Below are positions 1 through 64,000 of a stretch of DNA of 64,000 nt, one piece after another. How positions within the stretch are numbered: position 1 is the stretch's first letter; every line of letters begins with the position of its first letter. The position numbers and the translations under genes were made by a program. Source of the DNA: Torpedo marmorata (Eukaryota); assembly GCA_977017645.1 (NCBI GenBank), contig OZ360224.1:44764001-44828000 (forward strand), in the 5' to 3' direction. Below the pieces are notes generated by a model. That model had not been told where the DNA came from. It did no database searches and saw only the letters and a list, made by a program, of their open reading frames with translations.

Positions 1-1136
1 AGTGAACTTTTGTTTAATGCTTTTATGGCCACCAATAAACATAAAAGGGGCAACGGTTATATCAGATTTAACAGTACAACTTGTATCACATTAAAGTTTC
101 AGAAAGTTGATTCCAACCTGGATATAAAGGAAACGTAGATACGCACAGTATAAGTTCCCATTGCATTATTTTCTCCTTGAACGTTGCAGGATTGTGTGCG
201 AGCATGTTTATCTTTTCAAAAACCACTGTCGATGACTATACTTATTAAAAGCGACAACGACCAGACATTCCCAATCATTCCCATTCTTTCATGAATTGAA
301 TATTTGTTAAATCAGCCCTTGAAAAACTATCGCATTCCAGGTCGTTAGCAGCATGGCTATTTGATTAGAAAGATGTGATGGAAGTGTCGTGAATTGGGGG
401 AGGGTGGGAGGGTGGGGAGGGGGTTGTCAATTCTGTTACTTACTTGGACAATCTATTTACTTATTCATTAAATAACAAAATGATTGATAGATGAATAAAT
501 GTTCTAAAAGTCAAGAACGTAAAGTTACAAAATTGATTCATCTCATCTGTAGAACACGAATGTTACCGGTAGATCATTGTTTTAAATAGTAATATTTAAT
601 TTTTTATGGTGGTAGATTCTGCCAAACTAAGAAACAATTGGGTCGAACGGAAAGAGGTAAATCATTCAATATACTCCAATTGTAAGTTTAACTGAGATAC
701 TGTGCATCCAATGGGAGAGATAGATTGATGGAGAGGCAGGCGGAGGTGTGCCCTCCCATTGCACTCTGTACGCATATATTCTATCTCTAAATGTTTCAGA
801 AAGGTAGACATATAAACAGAAAACTAAACCGACAGACAGACAGATTTTACGTTTTGCATTATATATAGGCAGTTACAGGACTTCAAAATCCACCGCATTG
901 ATGGGATTTTCATTACAAGTTAATTCCTTGTCTATAGTTTATTATTTAGGATTAGAACTGAACTTTCAATGTTACTGTTGAATTAATAAATGTGTCTGTG
1001 TGGTACAGAGGCAGGGGTGTCGTCGTAGAGGGCTACAGCGATTCACGTCGGATTGAGCTTGTTTTCCCCAGTTAAACCCATCGGTGGAGAAAGAGGGAAG
1101 GGGAAAGAGAGGGAGAAGGAAGAAGGAGCGAGAGTG

Positions 1137-1150
1137 AGAGAAATAGATAG

Positions 1151-1191
<41 letters not shown>
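1137..1191 (+). repeat. (GA)n purine tract in the probable 5'UTR
   Basis: GA repeat directly upstream of exon 1a coding sequence. Confidence 0.9.
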
Positions 1192-1192
<1 letters not shown>

Positions 1193-1213
1193 AGACAGCT
1201 GCTCTTCACATGA

Positions 1214-1294
1214 ATGCACTCATCTTCTAAAGACCAGACTGCAAACATGCTCTGGAAACTTGTGGAAAATGTCAAATACGAGGACATCTACGAG
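1214..1294 (+). CDS. TFAP2B: Transcription factor AP-2 beta, coding exon 1a
   Basis: Translates as [27 protein letters not shown], matching the AP-2 beta N-terminus, followed by the donor GAG|gtgagc. 81 nt, phase 0. A second in-frame ATG lies at 1247. Confidence 0.95.
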
Positions 1295-4200
1295 GTGAGC
1301 AAACACGGAAATAGTTTTCTGTTTTATGGTCGAGTGAATTAATCGGGCTTCAGAGTTATGTCTGCCTTGAAATGTTCCAACACCAGGCTGGCAATTTTCT
1401 GCATTCAAGATATGAACCATTTATCATTAACGTCGTCAGATTTTTGTTTTTCGGAAATGTCAGACTTCGCTCTGTTACAAAGACAATTTCCATATTTTCA
1501 CAACATACAAAATGTTGAAGAAAATATGATATACGTTTATTCTTGTTTACGAATGGACGATTGCATCTTTTTTTGTTCGAATTTCGTTAAGGTGGCGATT
1601 TTATATACAGCTACTTAGTTTTGCGCGTCGATATTGCTACTGGAAAGGCAAATTGAAAATGATGGTTACCTTCCGATGTCAGGTCGTTATTATAATGTAA
1701 TTGGTTCCAAATTATAAAATGTATTTTTGGATACAGCTTAGGAGGTCGTATGTGTTCAAAGCTGGTGCACACAGCCGACGAAGTGAGACGGTGTCAGGCT
1801 AGGAATTGCGAGAGGTCACGATCAGTGAGCAAGTAATTCTAGAAGCCGGATAATGTTTTTTTTTAGTTGTAGTTCGCACTTTTCCGCATCGACATACTTT
1901 AAATATGGGGAAAGAATCAGAGAAAGGTGACATATGTAAAACAATGCGGGTGTAAATGTGAAAGAAAACGAGACTGGAGATAAATATTATTTGCGCTTAG
2001 AACCAGCGGTCCAGATATTGCCATTGTGCGAGAGAAACGGAAAAGGGGTCGTTGGTTTTTATAGAGCTCACTCTGACTAAAAGTTAAGGCAAATAGCACG
2101 CGTTTGAAAAAAGGTTTTATAATATGTTCCCGGAGTGGTCTGTTGGATTAAATAAATAGGATAACAATGTATAAAGAGCGCAGAAAATGGCTTATACAGG
2201 CTGATGAATTGCTGCCAACGTTCTGCTTTCAGACCCTTTAGAACGGCTCCGCGGGTAGCCGCCCTCTATAGAGCCACAAATGTCTCCGCTCTCAAGGTAC
2301 TCGTCAGGCTAATCGTCAACCGAAAGCTGGCAAAATCCAAGACATTTGCTTCAGAACTACAATACAATACAGCATAAATTAATGTAACCATCGCTTATTC
2401 CCCACCCAACCCTTTATTAGAAAACAGCGGTGTTAACTTCTGTTCTGAACGGTGCAGAATCATCGAAGATGGGATTTTTTTAAAATCTGCAGTGGACACG
2501 AAACTGTTTTACTTTAGTGTTCTTTTAAGCAAGTAACGAAAAGACAATTGGCTTATGTGTAATTTTATCTCCCAACGTTTTAATTATCAAGGGTATGTAC
2601 GGATTAGACCATGTTTCCTGGTTTGTTTAATGTCAAATAGTTAAAACGTCGAAACTGTTTAATGATTCATACATAATTAGATTAGCAAATGCATTTAAGC
2701 ATCTTAGCCTTGAATGTAAACTAACAGTATACTTATAATAGCAATAATAACATAATTCATTTAAATAGCAATTTATTTTTGACCTAGCTGTTGGTGCTAG
2801 CAAAGATAAGTTATCAATTATTTCCTTTAATTCGGTTGAAATGTAGTATTCACTCTGGGCTCTAATTACTCAAAATCGTAATGGTAAACTCCAAGTTAAA
2901 ATGTTAAATAAAGCTTAGCCATCTGTCTAAAATGTACACCACCAGTGATCAGTGGAACACGGTAGTGGATTTGGGCGCAAACGGGGTTCACTGGGAAATT
3001 TTCCGAGACATTTTAGATTCACTGTCTGCGGACCATTTCCAACTTTTTACGGTTGTTATCGGGACACGTTGGGTTTCAGGAACGAGATAAGGCAACTGAT
3101 GTCAGAAAAAGCGGTTGAACATTCAAGCAGACAGAGCAGACAAGCCAGTCCAACGGGTTCGACAATAACCCGGAACAAGTATTGCATAGCATCACGCCCC
3201 CACTTCCCTCCCCCAAAAAACCCCAAACTTGCCCCTCTGGCTTACATCAGCTCCGTAAACTTCAAGGGTCTTTACAGAAACCCTTGTAAATGTTTTACAG
3301 CTGGCGGCAGGAAAGGAGGACTTTATTTAAAAAAAAGTGAGATAACGCAAGGGACCGTGAGGTCTAGATTTGCAACGCCTTCGATCATGGGTGCTGATAA
3401 CAAAGAAAGCTTTTGGCGGTAGATTCTTCCAAAAGCAATTTGCCAAAATGTCTGGCGTCTCCCACACACACACATTGGCGTCGAGTCCTCTAAATTCCAT
3501 GCAGTTTATTTTATACTTTGAACACGTACTCTATTAAAAAGGGATCGGAGGCAGGCAATAATCTTTATAATCACAATCTTTAGCCTGTCGACCAACGAAG
3601 AAGGGGTTGTTTTCGTTTAACCTATTTGTTTCACTCTTTAATTTTCTTAGCAGTACCACGTGATAGGTCTTGTGAAATATTCAAGATGCCGGAGGTAATT
3701 TATTTAAGCGAATCTCTGGTAAGATCAACTTCATGTTGCCAAAGGGACAAGGTGGATTTGATCTTATCAGGGCTGGTATTCCCTAACATTATGCATTGCT
3801 TTTAACACAGTTCACTTGAATTGGTGATTGCTATTTTATGGGGATTCCAACATTATCCGGTTTGAGGGTCTTTCCATATGAAGCTCATAACATCTGATGG
3901 TTCAGAACTGAATAAAGCACTGTATTGATACTCCGATAAGAAGCGTTCCATCGCAGTAAAATGCACTTGTTTATGGTTCCACCGTTGCCGATAAAGAAAT
4001 TATTCCACAAAGATTATGCAACAAGGGCGTTGTACAATTGTACTATTTCTTGTTAGTTCTGTATAAAATGTGTAAAAAATAATATTTGCATGGCGAATGG
4101 CTACAAGAAGGCATTTACGTACAACCGCCCCGAAAGGCTGGGCTATGTTAAAGAAGGCACTTGGCCCCCACAGTTTTAAACGGAGCAAAGCTAAGTCGAG

Positions 4201-16683: not shown

Positions 16684-16804
16684 AAAGGTAAAAAAAAGGT
16701 AAAGGTTCCATTATTGTCACGTAATACTACATTTAGAATGTAACATACATGAAATTCTTTAATATTGTCTACCGTAAGGAAGACAGAGTCGCCACTTTGT
16801 CCAG
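16684..16804 (-). mobile_element. 5'-truncated copy of the 5S-derived SINE (tail only)
   Basis: Nearly identical to 50561-50673 (aaaggtaaaggttccattattgtcacgtaatactac...actttgtccag). Confidence 0.9.
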
Positions 16805-17284
16805 ATATCCAAAAGTTCCCTTGTAGGACAGTGAAATAAGCTGAACTTCGTGTTATTTCACACTCTCGCTTAAGGATATTTCAATTTGCGGAGCATAAAG
16901 AAGAGAGTTACTTTCGACCTGAATAAATGCACATGAGTTTGTACGGCTATCTTTCTCTGTATCGAGGGGAGGTCTTCGCCGCCTTCCCCATTTCGATGCA
17001 ACAGTAATTCTTAACTAAGCATTGCCAAAAACAATCAAACATTTGAAGTAAAGATAGTTTCGCTATACGCAGAAATAAAGATACGTTCACAAGGTAGACT
17101 GGAAGGAATTCTATGGCACGATCACAATCATTTACGACGCGGTAGAAACCAGTCGGTCCTTCATGTCTGTATCTGTCCAAAAAAAAACCACCCAGACGAA
17201 TCCCCCTTTCACTTAGTCGGTAACCCTGAGCCCTGCAGGATACAGTATATCGTCACAAAAACAAGAGGATATAATAAATATTTC

Positions 17285-17990
17285 AATACACAAAAGAGCT
17301 GGAGAAACTCAGCAGGTCACGCAGCGTTCTTTGTGTAGCAAAGATATATAATCAACGTTTAGGGTATGAGCCTCTCCATTCAGAGGCTACACCCCCACCC
17401 ATATCCACCTATTGCCTCTTGCCTGTGGGCCTGTGCTCCTCCCCCTGCCCCCCACCATTTTATTCAGGAGCTTGTCTGCTGTTTGCTCATATGAGCAAAT
17501 AAAATGGTGGGGGGCAGGGGGGAGCACAGGCAAGAGGTAATAGTTGGATATGGGTGGGAGGGCAGAAGAGAAAAAAACTGGGAAGCGAAAGGGGGGGGTG
17601 TAGCCTCTGAATGGAGAGGGAAGGGAGCGGGGAGGGGGAGGAAAGGAAACAGAGGGATGAGAGAGAGAGAGAGAGAGAAAGAAAGAGAGAGAGAGAAGGA
17701 AGAGGGACCTAATGGAAATAGGAAAAGTCAATGTTAATGCCACCTGGTTGGAGAGCGCCCAGACAGAATATCAGGTGCAGAATTGAAATGGTTGACCACT
17801 GGGATATCCACGCTATTGCAGCAGACCGAGCAAAGGTGCTCAATGAAGCGATCTCCCAGTCTGCGTCCAGTCTCACTGATGCGGAGGAGGTCACAACCGG
17901 AGCATCGGATGCAGCAGATGACCCCTGTAGATTCACAAGTGAAGTGTTGCTTCACTTGGAAGGACTGTTTGGGCCCCAAATGGTGGTGAG
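17285..17990 (-). mobile_element. Penelope-like element 3' fragment (GIY-YIG endonuclease remnant and terminus)
   Basis: ORF 17734-17979 reads GPKQSFQVKQHFTCESTGVICCIRC...ISETGRRLGDRFIEHL. The terminus ctggagaaactcagcaggtc is shared with the other copies. Confidence 0.88.
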
Positions 17991-36273: not shown

Positions 36274-36401
36274 NNNNNNNNNNNNNNNNNNNNNNNNNNN
36301 NNNNNNNNNNNNNNNNNNNNNNNNNNNNNNNNNNNNNNNNNNNNNNNNNNNNNNNNNNNNNNNNNNNNNNNNNNNNNNNNNNNNNNNNNNNNNNNNNNNN
36401 N
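36274..36401. other. Assembly gap (N run) in intron 5
   Basis: 128 Ns. Confidence 1.
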
Positions 36402-38534
36402 ACAAACAAGAAGGTACCTGTTACTTCCATTCATGATCACTCTATATCTGCATCAAAGGCAGACAGACATCTATTGTTCACAAAATGGCCTGTAATGTAC
36501 GTACATATATGGAGAGAGTGAAAGAGGAGAGTTTTTTAAAAAAAAAGCTTTTTAAATAGCAGAATTTAAAAAAAAACATGTTTAGTAGAATATGGATGTG
36601 GATGATTGTGAACACATTTCATTTTACTGTTGCATGACGTTGGACGTTCGCCAAACCCTTGAAACACCTTGCTGATTGGAACATATTTTGTGTTCTTTCT
36701 CAAACAATAATAGTGCCGGGGATTGTATGCATTCTTCGTTAATAAACTGAAATTGTCCGTGATGTTGTTGAAAGGTAAATTGGCTCGATTATTAGTCACG
36801 CGGTTATGTGAAACATCAAGATATTCACCTTTTTTATTTCCTGTTCACTGCTACCTCTGCCTCCTTCACCTATATACCGTTTATCCCTACATCTATGAAC
36901 AATTGTCTTTGCTACAAGGATCACCGTGACAATTATTTAATTTTAGTCTGCGAGATAACTTCAGCTCAGCTAATGATGTTTTATTTTTGAAAGATGTAAC
37001 ACCAGTTGTAAAGTTGCCCTTCATGAATTTTATATTTTAATGGTAACACCCTTATTAACGTTAAATGGTTAAAAAGTCAGAAAATAATTAGATTGATCAT
37101 TAGCAGTACAGTATATGGTTGAATTCTTTAATGCTAATGTTAATTTCATGTGCAGTGTCTAAGCTACCGTCTGCAAAGTACTTTGAAAAGATTCATTGCT
37201 GGAGGGGTGAAGCATTATCTACTTGAACCCCCCCCCTCCACCCTCCCCCCCCCCAGAGCTTGGCTTTGTAGTGTTACCCACCTTTCCCTGCTCTCTGAAA
37301 CATCAGCATAAGGCGGGAAGGTTGATGGCATGGAACTCCCTGCAGGGTGTTCTCAATAAATACACATACATACTCACAATAGCTATATAGGGAATAGGCA
37401 TTTTCTTGCTGCTTTATGCTATTTAAACTGTATTTTAAAATCTCTCCTCTTTCAGTCTCACCATACATATATGTATATGGTGAATTGGAGAGTACTTACC
37501 CATTTTCAGCAATCTAATTGTTCTTGCGAGGATTTAGTATTTTTAGCTGTTCCTAGTTGATTCACAACGTTGGTATAAAACAGTTCTTATTAGTATTTTG
37601 TTCTATATTAAAGTATTTGATTTATTGTATTTCAGTTTATTGAATATGATTTGTAGTATTTAGTTGCCTTTGACAACGTCGTTTACACTAAAATACTAAT
37701 ATATATTATTAAATGGTAGTGGAATTTAGTGAGCAACTTCCCAGCAATTTATGTGGGCAATATATTATACAGTCTTCGGGAAACGTACCTTTTATTAGAC
37801 ATTCACTCAGATAGATCATATGATGTGGATCATAGGATCATTAACATATGATATATTGTTTATGCATTCTCTGGTAGATAAACAAGGGTTATTAGAATTA
37901 ATTTTCTTTACTCTTTTTATGACGACCATTAGACTTCACAGATTAATTGTGAATACCCCCTCGGAACTTTTGCTATTTGTTATTGTGGTAAATAACGCTT
38001 AGTTATCCTCTGTTATAAACTTCAGGGCAGAGGATCATTTGTTTATTTACAATATTCCTATTCTCACGAATAAATGTACAATAATCAATTCCTTCATAAC
38101 AGTCGCGAAACACAAAAGTTGCAGATGCTGGAATCTTGAGCAGGGAAAGAATTTCTGGCGAGACTCATCAGAATTCATAACAGTCAGTTATTTTGCAATA
38201 CACACTCCAGTTGGTAATTGTTTACAATAAGGACATCATGATACTCTTAACCGCCATGATACTCACAAACCAATCCATTGCATTACTGTATCTTACCTTA
38301 TATCTAATAATACTTATCTAACAACTAAATGCAGAATAACACTGTTAACGTCGCGAATGAGTTCGATTCTTACAAGTTTTCTTTTGTGTGGCGGTGCGGG
38401 GGAAACATGCATTATCTATTGGTCACTTCTCCTTATCCAGCTGAGTATTAGTTTCTGGGCTCTAATTTTGTATGCAAAATGTTAGCCAACCATCGATTTA
38501 AATCATCTCATTTACGCGATTGAATCTGTGCATA

Positions 38535-38767
38535 AAAATTAAAACACGAAAATCTGTAGACACCGTGGTTGAAGTAAAAAACACAAATGCTGGAGAAACT
38601 CAGCAGGTCAAACAGTGTCTTTTATGTAGTAAAGGTAGAAATACATAACCGACGATTCGGGCTTGAGCCCAAGGGCTCAAGCCCGAATCGTCGGTTATGT
38701 ATTTCTACCTTTGCTACATAAAAGACACTGTTTGACCTGCTGAATTTCTCCAGCATTTGTGTTTTTT
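38535..38767. mobile_element. Hairpin (inverted-terminus) Penelope-derived insertion with target-site duplication
   Basis: Arms 38576-38670 and 38673-38767 are reverse complements with 2 mismatches. The insertion is flanked by gaatctgtgcata at 38522-38534 and 38768-38780. Its sequence matches the Penelope terminus at 62064-62187. Confidence 0.93.
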
Positions 38768-39521
38768 GAATCTGTGCATATGCTGGTTTCGCAATGAAGT
38801 ATCTACTCTCATCCATTAGATTAAAATATTGCATTTTTTTGCCCCTTCATAATGAGCAATCACTTTACAATAAATTGGCCTTTTATTTCGATGACTCAAA
38901 ATGAAGAACTTAAATCGAGACCCAAGATAATCAATGAACTCCTTATCCACCATGATTCATCGTTACTTGTTTGAAAAAGCAATGTGACTTTGCAACTTTT
39001 TTTTTAACTGGGAAGAAATTGCATAATGTATAATTTGTCAAATAACTTTTTTTATTCCCCCCCCCACCCCAAGTGCCCCCTTTCCTTCCCATTGTCGCCA
39101 ACGGGGATGACTTAAAATTTATACCTCATATGAGCGTTGAATTTTGTGAATGTCAGCGTTTATCTTCTGAACAGCGCGTTAAAGTCGAGAATCCATCCTA
39201 ATTCCCCATATGGAACCGCTCTTGGGTTCTCAAAGGGATGCACGGTGAAGCATTGGTGCTACATTGAAAAGGAAAGCCTCCTGATAAGAATATAAACAAC
39301 GAGCAGCAGAATGGTCTCACAATAATTCTAAATGTTACTGAAAAAGAACGAGTAAATGCTATTGAAACGTTGTTTTGGCCCCTCCGTACATTTTTGACTT
39401 CACTTTATCTTTCTGGCGAATATGAACGTCATTATTGATTTGCGTAGATTTAAAAGTTGCACACAATCTCGCCTGCCTCTTTGTGAAAACAATTAGTTTG
39501 GAATGTGATCTTGTCTTCCAG

Positions 39522-39663
39522 GCGAGGCCGTACATTTAGCACGGGACTTTGGGTATATCTGTGAGACGGAATTCCCTGCCAAAGCTGCAGCTGACTACCT
39601 GAACAGGCAGCACACAGACCCCAGCGAGCTGCACTCCAGAAAGAACATGATACTGGCCACAAA
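39522..39663 (+). CDS. TFAP2B: AP-2 beta exon 6 (helix-span-helix)
   Basis: Acceptor tcttccag|GC; (G)[46 protein letters not shown]; donor AA|gtgagt; 142 nt. Confidence 0.96.
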
Positions 39664-49865: not shown

Positions 49866-50560
49866 TGCAAATAGTTTAATTTGTTTTCCAATATTTTTGG
49901 CAGCTGATCTGGCACTGTTTTGCACCACTGCTAAATATAATTTACTTGAATTTTGAGAAAACTTGTCTTTTTATCAGTGAGTTTTTCCTGGTCTCATGCC
50001 TGTCAATGATATGCATTTATTTTGTTGAAAAAAAACCAAGGTAAAGGCTGAGATACATGGTGCTGGCACTACGTGTTGAGTATATGCATGAAATGAGTCA
50101 GTAATGGTGAGTAAGCAACACCCACTTTGCTGTAAAAGTGAATGATCACTGAAAGTTTATGAAACTTAAGAGTTAATGGTTTTGATGGCCAAGAAAAAAA
50201 GCCCAGATAACCTCAATAGACCCAACATATTGGCTTAATGTAAGGAAAGGTGACAAGAAAGATAAAGTGAAGTTCTCTATATCTAAATGCAAATAGTATT
50301 CCAAACAAAGTTAATGAGCAGCACACAAAAGGTCAACAGGTATGATCTGATAGATATTACAGTAACATGGTTACATGGAATTCAAAGCTTGGAACTCGAC
50401 ATTCAGAGGAGTTGACTTTTGGGAGTGATGGTCGGAAAGGAAAGGTTCATGGGGTGGCTCTGCTAATAAGAGATAAAATACGTACAACTGTGAGAGATGA
50501 CTGAGGCTCAGAAGTACAGTTCAGTTGGTTGGAGGTAAAAAGTAACAAGTCAGAGAATAT

Positions 50561-50798
50561 AAAGGTAAAGGTTCCATTATTGTCACGTAATACTACATTT
50601 AGAATGTAACATACATGAAATTCTTTAATTTTTGTCTACCGTAAGGCAGACAAAGGGTCGCTACTTTGTCCAGCGCCCCTCACAGAAACCTACAGCACCT
50701 GGTGTTCCTTGATGGTCTCCCCTCCAAGTACTGACCAGTCCTGTGCCTGCTTAGCTTCCGAGATCAGACAATCCCAGTCATATTCAGGCTATTGGTGC
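50561..50798 (-). mobile_element. 5S rRNA-derived SINE, near full length
   Basis: The reverse complement contains gtctgatctcggaagctaagcagg...tggtcagtacttggaggggagacc...ggtgctgtagg (5S-like), then a unique body and a (tttacc)n tail. Confidence 0.92.
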
Positions 50799-56289: not shown

Positions 56290-56533
56290 GCACCAATAGC
56301 CTGAATACGACTGGGATTGTCTGATCTTGGAAGCTAAGCAGGCACAGGACTGGTCAGTACTTGGAGGGGAGACCGCCAAGGAACACCAGGTGCTGTAGGT
56401 TTCTGTGAGGGGCGCTGGACAAAGTAGCGACCCTCTGTCTGCCTTACGGTAGACAAAAATTAAAGAATTTCATGTATGTTACATTCTAAATGTAGTATTA
56501 CGTGACAATAATGGAACCTTTACCTTTACCTTT
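56290..56533 (+). mobile_element. 5S rRNA-derived SINE, near full length
   Basis: 5S-like head to about 56402, body, and (tttacc)n tail. I count 5 differences from the copy at 50561-50798. Confidence 0.92.
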
Positions 56534-57964: not shown

Positions 57965-58705
57965 TAAACAAGAAAGTTTGTAGACACTTTGATTGTAGTT
58001 TAATACACAAAAGTGTTGGAGAAACTCAGTACAGGCCTCACAACATCCATAGAAATCAAAGATATATAACCAACGTTTCGGGCCTGAGCCCTTCTTCAAG
58101 GTATGAGCAAAAAGCAGGCAGGCACCTGAATAAAAAGGAGGGAGGAGAAGTAAAAAGGGGGCAGGGGGAGGAGCACAGTCCAACAGGCAAGAGGTCATAG
58201 GTGGATATGGGTGGGAGGGCAGAAGAGATAAAAATCTGGGAAGTGATAGGGGGAGTGGGTAGCTGTCTGAATGCAGAGGGAAGGGCGTGAGGAGCTGGAA
58301 GAAAGGAGAGATAGGGAAAGGGAAAGAGAGAGGGAGACACTGGAGAGTCCAAATGGAAACTGGAGAAGTTGATGTTAATGCTATCTGGTTGGAGAGTGCC
58401 CAGACGGAATATTACGTGTTGTTCCTCCAATTTGGGGGTGGCCTCTGTTTGGCTGTGCATGAGGCCATGGACAGACATGTCGCTGTTGGAATGGGGCACG
58501 GAATTGAAATAATTGGCCACTGGGAAGTCCCTGCTATTGCAGTGGACAGAGTGAAGGTGCTCAACGAAATGATCTCCCAGTCTGCGTCCAATCTCTCCGA
58601 AATAGAGGAGGCCACAACATGCACACCTGATGCAGTAGATGACCCCTGCAGAGTTGCTTCATTTGGAAGGACTGTTTGGGGCCCAGAATGGTGGTGAGGA
58701 AGGGC
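57965..58705 (-). mobile_element. Penelope-like element 3' fragment
   Basis: ORF 58056-58520 reads ANYFNSVPHSNSDMSVHGLMH...KLEEQHVIFRLGTLQPDSININFSSF. The shared terminus carries a hammerhead-like motif. Confidence 0.88.
58063..58106 (-). ncRNA. Minimal type I hammerhead-like motif in a Penelope terminus
   Basis: Minus strand reads AUACC UUGAAGA A GGGC UCAG GCCC GAAAC GUU GGUUAU. Confidence 0.6.
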
Positions 58706-59044: not shown

Positions 59045-59575
59045 AGTGATCCCACCAAGAGACATATTCCCCTCTCCTCCCCTCTCCGCTCCCTCCATGA
59101 CTCCCTTGTCCACTCCTCCATCCCCACCAATCGACCCCTTGACACCTACCCCTGTGACGGCAGGAGATTCTCCACTTGCGTCCACATGTCCTCCTTCACC
59201 ACCATTCAGGGCCCCAAACAGTCCTTCCAAGTGAAGAAACAATTCACTTGTGAATCTGCAGGGGTCATCTACTGCATCCGGTGCTTCCTTTGTGGTTTCC
59301 TCTACATCGGAGAGACTGGGTGCAGACTGGGAGATCACTTTGTTGAGCACCTCAGCTTTATCCACCACAATAGCATGGATCTCCCAGTGGCCACCCATTT
59401 CAATTCCCTGTCCCATTCCCTTGCTGACATGTCTCTCCATGTTCTCGTTCATTGCCAGACTGAGACTGAGTAACAACACTTCATCTTCTGCCTGGGCACC
59501 CTTCAGCTGGATGACATTAATATCGACTTCTCCGGCTTCTGTTAACCCCCTCCCCACATTTTTCTTCCTCCTTTG

Positions 59576-59623
<48 letters not shown>

Positions 59624-59905
59624 CTTTTCCCCCTGTCTCCTTTCACAGAGCCAAAATCAATTCTCACCACTCCCCTTACATTATCCAATTAACAACTTTC
59701 GTTGGCCTGGACTCCTCCCCCAGCCAGTCTTGTCTTTATTCTGATGCCTTCCTGTTCTTTGCTTATTCCTTGAAGAAGGGCTCAGGCCCGAAACGTCGGT
59801 AATATATCTTTACCTCGTATGGACGCTGAGAGACCAACCGAGTTCCTCCAGCATTTCTGTGTGTTTTTACTACAATCACAGCGACTGCAGACTTTCGTGT
59901 TTCAC
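59045..59905 (+). mobile_element. Penelope-like element 3' fragment
   Basis: ORF 59186-59473 reads QGPKQSFQVKKQFTCESAGVIYCIRC..CGFLYIGETGCRLGDHFVEHL (GIY-YIG). It includes (CT)n at 59577-59618 and the shared terminus. Confidence 0.9.
59763..59806 (+). ncRNA. Minimal type I hammerhead-like motif in a Penelope terminus
   Basis: UAUUCC UUGAAGA A GGGC UCAG GCCC GAAAC GUC GGUAAUA. Confidence 0.65.
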
Positions 59906-60844
59906 TTTTTCTCCCCTCCCTCATCAGACCTCCCTTAACTTCATCTTCAAGGGCCATAGCTTAGCCATTTCATACCAGAGATCCAAATGAGTTACATTTG
60001 GACACCTTTTTAAACCACTGCGATAAGGTGGAACACCCTAAAACGCAATATAATTTTCCAAATTAAGTTTTCTCCCAGTACAAGGTTTGCCCATGGACTT
60101 TTCCTTGGCACGTCAATTTGTTATATTAAAGCACAGGAAAATGATCAGTGCAAGGAGAACAATATCTAGGGAAGGAGTCCTTGCTGTTAAGAAAAAAAGG
60201 AGGGAACCTTACTAAATGGCAAAGATAAAATATGGGCCAAAAATACACCAGCAATTTCTTTTATTCATGATTGTTATATTTATAATTCAGTAAGAGAATA
60301 AAATATGATCAGTACAAAACAAATTACAAGGTAATTAGAGGCTAGTTATTATAATAGTGTTTTTTGTTTATTGGCCATTTTGGATTTAAAATGTTGATCT
60401 TAACACCCGCATCCACCCCCTCACCTCGCACTCCAAGTCAAATGAAACACATTCCTCAATGCTACTAAAGTTGCTAAAATTATGCCTTGAGGTATTCAGT
60501 GCTGTCACTAAAATCTGGTCACATCTAATTGACCACAATGTAAATCCCACAGCCCTGATGAATGAAGTACATATTTAGCATTTGATCTCATCTCAACATC
60601 TGACATTGTCAGTTCATGTATATCAGGAATTAGGAGGAGGCAAAGACTACTTTGTCCAAACCACGCATTTTAAGCAAATTTCAGAAGATTATCAAGGTGA
60701 GCTTGTGCCATCTCTACATGCATACTTACCATCAACTGTTCCTTGAATAGAATTGTCCAACTGGCAAGTATACCTATTAGTACATTTAAAAGGATCTCAA
60801 CACAAATTTTAAGAAAATGCACAAAATATTTCATTATTTGATTG

Positions 60845-61950: not shown

Positions 61951-62061
61951 GGACTAACGTAGTAGCAAAAGTAGCATAAGCTACGGGCCCCGCATTTTGA
62001 AGGGCTTTAAATGCTTGCTCTATTACTATAGTACAGGTGCCTAACCTTTTATCCGAAAAAA

Positions 62062-63515
62062 ACCGAAAATCTGTAGACACTGTGGTTGGAGCAAAAAACA
62101 CAAATGCTGGAGAAACTCAGCAGGTCAAACAGTGTCTTTTATGTAGCAAAGGTAGAAATACATAACCGATGTTTCGGGCTTGAGCCCTTCATCAAAGTAT
62201 GAGAAAATGCCGGCAGGCGTCCGAACAAAAGAGTGAGGGGAGAAAGGGGGTGGCGAAGGCAGGAGATGATAAGTGGATAAAGGAGGGAGAGGACAGCAGC
62301 AAAGAGAGGGAGGAGGGATGGCTGGGTGGGTGGAAAAAACAGGAAGGACAGGTGAGGGGGGAGGGGAAGGAAAAGACAAGCAGGTTTAGTGGAAAGCAGA
62401 AAAGTCAATGTTAATGCCATCTGGCTGGAGAGTGCCCAGATGGAAAATGAGATGTTGTTCCTCCAATTTGCAGGTAGTCTGGGTGGGATAGTACATAAGG
62501 CCATGGACAGACATGTGAGTGTGGGAGTGTGACTCGGAATTGAAATGGCTGGCTAGTGGGAGGTCGCTGTTGTTGTGGACGGAGAGGAGGTGCTCAGCAA
62601 AGCGATCTCCCAATCTACAACCGGTCTCTCCGATATAGAGAAAGCCACAAAGGGAGCACTGGATGCAGTAAATATGTTCTCTGGATGTACAAGTGAAGTG
62701 TAGTTTCACTTGAAAGGCCTGTTTGGGGCCCCGGACCGTGGTGAGGGGGGAGGTGTGGGCGCAGGTGTTGCACCTCCTGCGGGCACAGGGGAAGGTGCCG
62801 GGGGTGCGATGGGTGGGGAGGGATGAGTGCATGAGGGAATCGTGGAGGAAGCGGTCCCTGCGGAAGGCCGAGAGGGGAGGAGAAGGAAAAATGTGTCTGG
62901 TGGTGGGATCCTGTAGTAAGTGCCGGAAATTCCGGCAGATAATGTGTTGGATGCGGAGGCTGGTGGGGTGATAGGTGAGGATGAGGGGGATTCTATGTTT
63001 GTTGCATCTGGGGGCAGAGGGGGCCTGGGCAGATGAGCGGGAAATGGAGGAGATGCGGGTGAAGGCTGAGTTGATGGTGGTGGAGGGGAAGCCACATTTG
63101 TGGAAGAAGGCAGACATTTCAGAAGATCTGGACTGGAAGACCTCATCTTGGGAACAGATGAGGCAGAGACGGAGAAATTGAGAGAAGGGGATGGAATCCT
63201 AGGGTGTGAGGAAGTGTAGTCCAGATAGTTGTGGGAGTTGGAGGGTTTGTAGTAAATGTCGGTGGAAAGCTTGTCTCCTGAGATGGAGACAGAGAGATCC
63301 AGGAAGGGGAGAGTATTATCGGAGATGGACCAGGTGAGTTTGAGATCGTGGTGGAAGTTCGATGCGAAGTGGATGAAGTTGACAAGCTCATCACGGGTGC
63401 ATGAGGCAGCCCCGATGTAGTCGCCGATATAACTGAGGAAGAGATGAGGGGTCTTGCCTGTGTAGGCTTGCAGCATGGATTGCTCCACAAAGCCCACAAA
63501 CAGGCAGGCGTAGTG
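62062..63515 (-). mobile_element. Penelope-like element, 5'-truncated (RT C-terminal part, GIY-YIG, terminus)
   Basis: RT motifs YACLFVGFVEQ, YIGDYIG (decayed YIDD) and LPFLDLSV..DIYYKP, then a frameshift into ORF 62386-63117 with C..C, HIYCIQC..CGFLYIGETG and EQHLIFHLGTLQPDGIN. Confidence 0.93.
62161..62201 (-). ncRNA. Minimal type I hammerhead-like motif in a Penelope terminus
   Basis: Minus strand reads CAUACU UUGAUGA A GGGC UCAA GCCC GAAAC AUC GGUUAUG. Confidence 0.6.
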
Positions 63516-64000
63516 ATCTGGAACGATGAATTTGTTTCTGACCTGCCGGGAGGCCGACGATGTCTCTGTTCCTGACCTGCCGGGAGGCCGACACCAGCAC
63601 CGCTCCTGCGTTGTGATTTGGAACACATGCGCAGATTTCCGTCGCTCTCTCTCCCTCTTCAGTCTCTCTCCCTCCCCAGCAATGGCAATCTGCACATGTG
63701 TTCCAAATAGGAGGTGCTGGACAAGGGGGGGTTGCGGCGGCGCTGGACAGGCAGGGGGTGGGGGTTGCAGCGGCCTCCGTAACTGTATGACGACTCCGCT
63801 GCTGCCGGTAGGTTGACGTCCCCGACGTTCCACTAACTACCGATGAAACCGACACGGGATTTTCAAGTGTGAGTTAAGTATAGGTCGCGTCGGGTCATGT
63901 ATGGTGAACGCAAGACATCCATGAAAAAAAGTTTGGTTTTTAGAAGCTTTCCGGTTTTCGGAATTCCATATAAAAGGTTAGGCACCTATACTGCACTTGC

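What the first reader, a model, noticed from the sequence alone, without database searches (positions are those of the whole stretch)
38520..38780. Near-perfect 95-bp hairpin insertion made from a Penelope terminus, folding back at the hammerhead motif
Seen: the arms 38576-38670 and 38673-38767 have a 2-nt loop and 2 mismatches. There is a 41-bp extension on the left only and a 13-15 bp target duplication ((tt)gaatctgtgcata). The arms match the Penelope end at 62064-62187. The inversion point falls at hammerhead stem II (GGGC UCAA GCCC), removing the UUGAUGA core, and both arms share the same GAAA-to-GAAT change, so they were copied from one template. Established: Penelope-like elements produce inverted terminal repeats with a one-sided tail. 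Inference: ribozyme structure may determine where reverse transcription folds back, creating non-coding hairpin elements. In TFAP2B pre-mRNA this would form long dsRNA, a possible ADAR or Dicer substrate, about 750 nt before exon 6.
Basis: partly seen in the sequence, partly recalled or inferred. Interest (0 to 1): 0.7.

Follow-up and report, generated by a model that had tools for sequence, protein, structure and literature searches.

The report
Head-to-head Penelope retroelement stub insertion
This hairpin in an intron of the TFAP2B gene is one of thousands of short mirror-image leftovers of a Penelope-type jumping gene in this genome, an already described kind of insertion, and the copies taken together suggest it is likely two separately made DNA copies joined head to head rather than one copy folding back at the ribozyme.

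Summary
The hairpin is real and ordinary in kind: a 246-bp insertion of the 3' end of an abundant Neptune-type Penelope-like element (PLE), with one-sided tail and 15-nt target duplication. A related organism's contig shows the empty site. About 5,000 such short hairpins lie in this genome; the scan has noted the same kind in at least 17 other genomes. Arm ends are not random, but stem II is not the focus: they crowd from the hammerhead to about 35 nt upstream of it, with a sharp mode at the 5' edge of helix I and none at the cleavage site. Fold-back of one cDNA is contradicted: the tail-less arm is longer than the tailed arm in 24 of 48 hairpins, and 106 copies join a tail-only stub to an arm it shares almost no sequence with. 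Best reading: both nicked target strands prime reverse transcription at two RNA start sites, both cDNAs run off a template whose 5' end lies at the hammerhead's edge, and their ends are trimmed and joined. This copy has no catalytic core. The ADAR/Dicer idea could not be tested.

The parts
38520..38534 (+). Left copy of the 15-nt target-site duplication
   Evidence: single copy at the empty site in X2; 14-15 nt in 32 of 50 sister hairpins
38535..38575 (-). PLE 'tail': extreme 3' end of the element RNA, between the two inferred RT start sites; present on one side only
   Evidence: matches 62059-62092; tail = interval between RT starts in PMC11167929
38576..38670 (-). Tailed arm: antisense copy of the pLTR, ending at element position 133 (5' base of hammerhead stem II); includes the uncut GUC site; GAAA changed to GAAT
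38671..38767 (+). Tail-less arm: sense copy from element position 135 to about 39; the central AA is templated; no UUGAUGA core
   Evidence: match to 62189-62092
38766..38780 (+). Right copy of the target-site duplication (first 2 nt shared with the arm's T run)
39522..39663 (+). Host exon, AP-2 beta (TFAP2B)-like; the insertion lies in the upstream intron
62059..63520 (-). 5'-truncated, frameshifted copy of the same PLE family (end of RT, CX4CX2C linker, GIY-YIG region, 3' pLTR with minimal hammerhead core at 62195-62189, tail); reference for comparison, not shown to be the source

Best explanation
This is a dead-end insertion of the 3' end of a Penelope-like retroelement, likely made when both nicked strands of the target primed reverse transcription separately and the two short cDNAs were joined head to head. 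Shown: staggered-cut signature (15-nt duplication), empty site in relatives, two alternative outer ends about 35 nt apart (tailed and tail-less), inner ends that differ between the arms with either arm longer, junctions with 0-6 nt overlap or 1-9 extra bases. Inferred: one strand primes at the tail end and the other at the inner start site of the same RNA or of RNA from the same source copy; both cDNAs run off a template whose 5' end lies at about element position 143-147, the 5' edge of hammerhead helix I (a transcription start is the likeliest cause); the free ends are trimmed by a few to 30 nt and ligated by end joining. In this copy trimming left ends at 133 and 135, which removed the core. 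The hammerhead marks the place because the RNA begins there, not because it cuts or turns the polymerase round.
For: Either arm longer: 23 tailed, 24 tail-less, 1 equal of 48; 20 against 10 of 31 in an unselected sample, 13 by more than 100 nt. 106 copies join a tail stub to a sense arm; in 22 of 30 read the stub ends within the tail so the two parts share no sequence, 18 of 30 have a duplication of 10 nt or more. One-armed copies with duplications exist both with and without the tail (L242, L243, L262 against L246, L265), so the tail-less end is a start site in its own right; it lies at 29-39 in 23 of 31. In vitro a lizard PLE cuts and extends both strands, starts at two sites that bound the tail, and does not need hammerhead cleavage (PMC11167929). 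Defined template end: ends at 146 number 947 against 191 at the cleavage site and 107 at a control position (30 of 30 and 23 of 30 read were true truncations); 23 of 30 arms start at 142-147; tailed and tail-less arms end at the same element positions, so the stop is set by position, not distance; arm lengths are correlated (13,3;2,13, p 2e-4); no stop on second passage (0 of 52 against 11 of 94, p 0.008). Shared source: a diagnostic site agrees in both arms 15 times and disagrees 0 times in 52 hairpins; rare shared changes 3 against 0.3 expected.
Against: No RNA data: the 5' end is inferred from DNA only. No cap signature: G precedes position 146 in 26 of 100 listed ends, counted by eye, as background would give. 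Ends also spread over 150-180, which a single start does not explain. No tandem copy begins at 139-150 (0 of 52), so long copies need a different, longer template; this is an added assumption. Most rare changes are in one arm only (38 single against 3 shared; 6 of 7 GAAT hairpins), and agreement at subfamily sites could reflect subfamilies active at different times; the shared GAAT could also be later conversion between the arms. One-sided deletions from once-longer palindromes could mimic some asymmetry. The in vitro element is of another clade (Poseidon).
Confidence: 0.65

Rival explanations
1. Fold-back or self-priming: one cDNA turns at a hammerhead stem and copies itself (first reader; close to the self-priming proposal for palindromic inverted junctions in PMC3846280).
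For: Both arms share GAAT, expected by chance far less than once among about 2,200 hairpins. Many junctions sit on short palindromes (AGTACT, GTATAC, TGCCGGCA in the list). Arm lengths are correlated.
Against: Predicts tailed arm at least as long as the other: broken in 24 of 48 and 20 of 31. Cannot make the tail-stub class or explain why the second arm stops at a site also used by one-armed copies. Only 23 of 100 ends are in stem II. Short palindromes serve equally as microhomology between two identical cDNA ends.
Confidence: 0.1
2. Two primings as above, but the short ends come from the RT falling off after the hammerhead (cDNA hairpin plus weak rU:dA tract) or from exonuclease trimming of RNA back to the protein-bound hammerhead, not from a transcription start.
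For: Broad zone 121-180 (27 of 94 ends); no cap G; the mode is exactly the base of helix I.
Against: Intrinsic fall-off should also act on second passage: 0 of 52 at 139-150, 7 of 52 at 121-180. Exonuclease trimming is not excluded by anything here.
Confidence: 0.15
3. Long symmetrical palindromes formed first and were later shortened by central or one-sided deletions, so present junctions record decay, not insertion.
For: Long close hairpins are rare (52 at position about 222 against 2,212 and 2,184); long palindromes are unstable (recalled).
Against: The same end zone appears in one-armed copies, 12 of 63; the sharp 142-147 mode and the paucity of ends at 59-120 (1 of 94) are not expected from decay.
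Confidence: 0.07
4. Hammerhead self-cleavage sets the template's 5' end.
For: 191 ends at the cleavage site against 107 at a control three bases away; an earlier scan note on another genome reads it so (e1-9820663).
Against: 7 of 30 of those are not truncations, leaving about 146 against 107 (control not read); 0 of 92 arms at risk end at 91-120; this copy and most others run through the uncut site. A small contribution is not excluded.
Confidence: 0.03

Closest known systems
Insertions of endonuclease-bearing PLEs with inverted 5'-truncated pLTR, 30-40 bp one-sided tail and target duplication (PMC3846280, passages and Discussion read; PMC8557442, passages read)
   Same: Head-to-head inverted copy, one-sided tail, duplication, palindromes at the junction, microhomology joins.
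   Different: Here both parts are cut down to about 100 nt so the whole insertion is a hairpin; the population data argue against the self-priming model offered in PMC3846280.
PAc (Poseidon of Anolis) in vitro (PMC11167929, main text read, parts 1-2 of 4; supplements not seen)
   Same: Two RT start sites bounding the tail, both strands cut and extended, hammerhead a short way upstream, cleavage not required.
   Different: The paper reports no inverted or hairpin products in the parts read; this family has the CX4CX2C linker of Neptune type and its ATG lies about 40 nt downstream of the tail.
Twin priming of L1 (recalled; not read here)
   Same: Both target ends prime cDNA; products joined by microhomology; inversion within one insertion.
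   Different: In L1 the two cDNAs copy different parts of the RNA; here the two starts are about 35 nt apart and the copies overlap, giving a palindrome. Only the tail-stub class has the L1 geometry.
Minimal hammerheads of metazoan PLEs (PMC4209133, parts 1-2 of 4 read)
   Same: Extra base between 9 and 10.1, G10.1-C11.1, palindromic 15.2-16.2, no real helix III.
   Different: U rather than C at position 3 in this family; the window's hairpin keeps no core at all.
Non-LTR retrozymes (bioRxiv 10.64898/2026.07.22.740005, abstract and passages read)
   Same: Short non-coding PLE-derived sequence with hammerhead origin.
   Different: Those are tandem arrays with intact ribozymes; this is an inverted single insertion without one.

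Membership tests
EN+ Penelope-like element (parent family) | Single ORF with RT and C-terminal GIY-YIG endonuclease | tested here: met
   845-aa open frame in copy L112: RVT_1 E 5e-5 and GIY-YIG E 1e-3, both under Pfam's curated cut-offs, in that order; CC between the GIY and YIG-like motifs in the window copy
EN+ Penelope-like element (parent family) | Partial-tandem pLTR structure: 3' end followed by ORF start | tested here: met
   569 exact tail-to-5'UTR junctions; ORF continues 400 nt or more in 55 of 90 read
EN+ PLE insertion | Inverted truncated pLTR, one-sided 30-40 bp tail, target duplication | tested here: met
   31 of 94 unselected copies are two-armed
Neptune (or Nematis) clade | CX2-5CxxC linker before the GIY-YIG motif (PMC8557442) | tested here: met
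   CX4CX2C upstream of the endonuclease motifs in the window copy
Neptune clade | RT phylogeny | not tested
   no tree was built; Neptune against Nematis not separated
Minimal type I hammerhead (parent pLTR) | Core boxes, helix II, unpaired base at 9/10.1, palindromic helix III | tested here: met
   pattern scan of window and loci, with U3 instead of C3; Rfam hammerhead models do not hit
Minimal type I hammerhead (parent pLTR) | Self-cleavage | not testable with these tools
   no clear excess of ends at the cleavage site
Hammerhead ribozyme (this hairpin) | Intact YUGANGA and GAAA boxes | tested here: not met
   core absent and GAAA changed in both arms
MITE or self-propagating hairpin element | Many copies of one unit with the same junction and shared diagnostic changes | tested here: not met
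   junctions differ widely; this exact junction is in 0 of 50 unselected hairpins and recurs in two different subfamilies (L001, L002 against L022, L028); some whole-unit copying elsewhere is not excluded
ADAR or Dicer substrate | Editing or small RNAs from the intronic duplex | not testable with these tools
   only the predicted fold is available

The most novel reading that the evidence does not exclude
PLE integration is double-ended by design: a dimer primes both target strands at two RNA start sites about 35 nt apart, and the element's own mRNA, starting at the 5' edge of the hammerhead, is a template that can only yield short run-off stubs and hairpins, whereas long and tandem copies come from longer read-through RNAs. 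The thousands of hairpins would then be a fossil map of the RNA's 5' end and would replace the published self-priming explanation of inverted pLTRs.
Probability: 0.4. Interest if true: 0.55.

Novelty: new member of a known kind. Interest (0 to 1): 0.3.

Why it matters
The single insertion matters little: it is young, lineage-restricted, non-coding and one of thousands. The value is in the family. How PLEs form inverted pLTRs and tails is called open in PMC8557442 and PMC11167929, and this genome holds enough young copies to discriminate models: it speaks against self-priming and for two primings on a template with a defined 5' end, with predictions that the existing in vitro system can test. 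Thousands of near-perfect 100-170 bp duplexes, some in introns, could also load RNA editing and dsRNA sensing, but nothing here shows it.

Tried and rejected
Rfam at gathering and at E up to 10 finds no hammerhead in the window or in the reference pLTR; the motif rests on a pattern scan; the minimum-energy fold of the pLTR shows stem II but not the ribozyme fold, z -0.67. No RNA holder listed, so editing, small RNAs and RNA 5' ends were not examined. No contig spans the hairpin or its right junction in X1; X3 and X8 gave nothing in the second lay: absence of cover only. The first 30 hits of the DNA search were chosen by likeness to this junction and were not used for distributions. Cap-derived G at position 146: not seen. 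My first guess that full-length copies begin at 146: rejected (0 of 52). A splice or branch-point origin of the ends was considered (an intron ends at helix I in Drosophila virilis Penelope, PMC4209133) but no copy with a matching deletion was noticed; not tested further. Private shared changes over positions 46-97: 0 shared, 35 single in 63 copies. Literature searches for a twin-priming or double-primer model of PLEs, or for such hairpins in sharks and skates, listed no paper whose title or abstract start reports it; the library lacks most subscription papers and supplements were not read.

Full report
Observation. The central AA is not a loop of new sequence but the first two bases of the right arm. 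The downstream exon is AP-2 beta-like. The insertion is not an assembly artefact as far as can be seen: a 4,123-nt contig of run X2 goes from 38519 directly to 38766 and so holds one copy of the duplicated target, X3 is short by about 247 nt at the same place, and a contig of X1 enters the tail from the left flank for 28 nt. No record spans the whole hairpin.

Parent element. Positions below count from the tail end of a real copy, L112: tail 1-38, cleavage site 113|114, stem II 122-133, core 135-141, 5' strand of helix I 142-147; window position = element position + 38537 on the left arm. The family has an RT followed by a GIY-YIG domain (both below curated cut-offs), a CX4CX2C linker of Neptune type, partial tandems and a minimal hammerhead pattern with U3 (features as in PMC4209133). 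An exact 51-mer of the tailed end occurs 16,758 times in the 6.2-Gb genome.

How common the hairpin is. With 15-nt anchors and up to 60 nt between them, hairpin centres number 596 for anchors ending at position 82, 2,212 at 112, 2,184 at 142 and 52 at about 222. These are lower bounds, and a few loci are counted twice; together about 5,000. Target duplications of 10 nt or more were found in 42 of 50 read, 14-15 nt in 32.

Where arms end. I took the first 100 exact tailed ends on contig C1, dropped 6 (duplicated flanks or tandem junctions) and corrected one end by hand (L081, internal deletion). Of 94, 1 ends at 59-120, 27 at 121-180, 61 at 181-3046 and 5 run past the reference; rates per 100 nt at risk 0.017, 0.56 and 0.095 (p 9e-9 and 3e-11). 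The zone is also seen in one-armed copies (12 of 63). But stem II is not the focus: in the first 50 of the 2,212 hairpins, 16 of 100 ends are at 113-121, 23 in stem II, 35 in the core and 26 at 142-148 (this class is capped by the 60-nt window), and the other large class has both ends at 142 or beyond. Ends exactly at 146 number 947, at the cleavage site 191 (23 of 30 read were true truncations) and at 110 107 (filters of similar stringency, but only these three positions were counted). This copy, with ends at 133 and 135, is on the short shoulder; its exact junction is in 0 of those 50.

Fold-back or two cDNAs. A cDNA that starts in the tail and folds back must leave the tailed arm at least as long as the other. 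In 48 of the 50 hairpins with one clear tail, the tailed arm is longer in 23, the tail-less in 24, equal in 1; junctions overlap by 0-6 nt in 36 of 50 and carry 1-9 extra bases in 14. In the unselected sample 31 of 94 have an inverted part; it reaches further in 20, by more than 100 nt in 13 (in 7 of the 31 the inverted part does not reach the terminus, some because the locus was cut). 106 copies join a stub of the tail to a sense arm; of 30 read, 22 stubs end within the tail, 23 arms start at 142-147 (the pattern favours short extensions), 18 have duplications. One-armed copies with duplications occur with and without the tail. This fits the in vitro result that a lizard PLE cuts and extends both strands and starts at two sites bounding the tail, without needing cleavage (PMC11167929), and it does not fit the self-priming proposal of PMC3846280 as the general route.

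Shared template. Across copies the signal is modest: a subfamily site agrees 15 times and disagrees 0 times in 52, an indel site disagrees 3 times in 52 and 3 in 11 long pairs; a copy's own partner ranks at the 0.25 and 0.24 quantile among other arms for long and short pairs, against 0.5 expected; rare shared changes 3 against 0.3 expected, single 38. Same source copy is likely; same molecule, or later conversion, cannot be told apart.

Why the ends lie there. Arm lengths are correlated (both short 13, mixed 3 and 2, both long 13; p 2e-4), and tailed and tail-less arms stop at the same element positions, which points to a limit in the template. cDNAs crossing the region a second time in tandem copies do not stop at 139-150 (0 of 52 against 11 of 94, p 0.008; at 121-180 7 of 52 against 27 of 94, p 0.04; a few of the 52 apparent ends are internal deletions). 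This argues against the structure halting the RT and for a class of RNAs whose 5' end is at the edge of helix I. The sense sequence there fits the initiator consensus (recalled), and the Drosophila Penelope promoter lies inside the pLTR (PMC2377424, passages). Against: no cap-derived G (26 of 100, by eye), ends up to 180, and no long copy starting there. A transcription start is therefore my best guess, not a result.

Host effect. The pre-mRNA would hold a 95-bp duplex about 750 nt before the exon. It has no ribozyme core. Its absence in organisms B and C shows it is recent; nothing here shows a function.

Comparison with what is known. The anatomy is the described inverted-pLTR-plus-tail insertion (PMC3846280, PMC8557442). 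The scan has 92 notes on such hairpins in at least 17 genomes, several reaching the same RNA-start reading; none near this window or by sequence. My RNA-start idea was noted before that look-up; the cleavage-site test was prompted by it. Searches found no paper stating the two-primer origin of PLE hairpins, within the limits of the library. Verdict: real, new member of a known kind, interest 0.3; the modest gain is population evidence on mechanism.

Noticed in passing
window 50560-50798 and 56290-56528; part at 16695-16766: Two 98% identical copies of a 239-nt repeat in opposite orientation, 5.5 kb apart, with a 5S rRNA-like head (Rfam 38.4 bits): probably a young 5S-derived SINE.
   Followed up: no
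window 57966-58699 and 59048-59910: Two older PLE ends of related subfamilies facing each other about 350 nt apart, each with a minimal hammerhead pattern; may be one old two-armed insertion.
   Followed up: no
window 38108-38160 and 17282-17990: Further stubs of other PLE subfamilies, one 400 nt left of the finding in the same intron region.
   Followed up: no
G000:C1:83038148-83038194: A hairpin whose centre holds about two units of the vertebrate telomeric repeat between the arms: possible telomerase or telomere-templated filler at the join.
   Followed up: no
element positions about 630-670 (L058, L088, L089, L144, L147, L149, L150): A possible second cluster of 5' ends: 3 of 94 terminal arms and 5 of 52 upstream tandem parts.
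   Followed up: partly
L048, L145, L162: Inverted copies in which both arms carry the tail, attached to tandem junctions.
   Followed up: no
L034, L038, L196: Several insertions share the same flanking sequence, which is itself a repeat: repeated targeting or copying inside another element.
   Followed up: no
G000:C2:199274870, 199278711, 199282514: Three tail-to-ORF junctions about 3.8 kb apart on one strand: a multi-unit tandem array of the family.
   Followed up: no
window 36274-36401: Run of 128 N, 2.1 kb left of the finding; not part of it.
   Followed up: no
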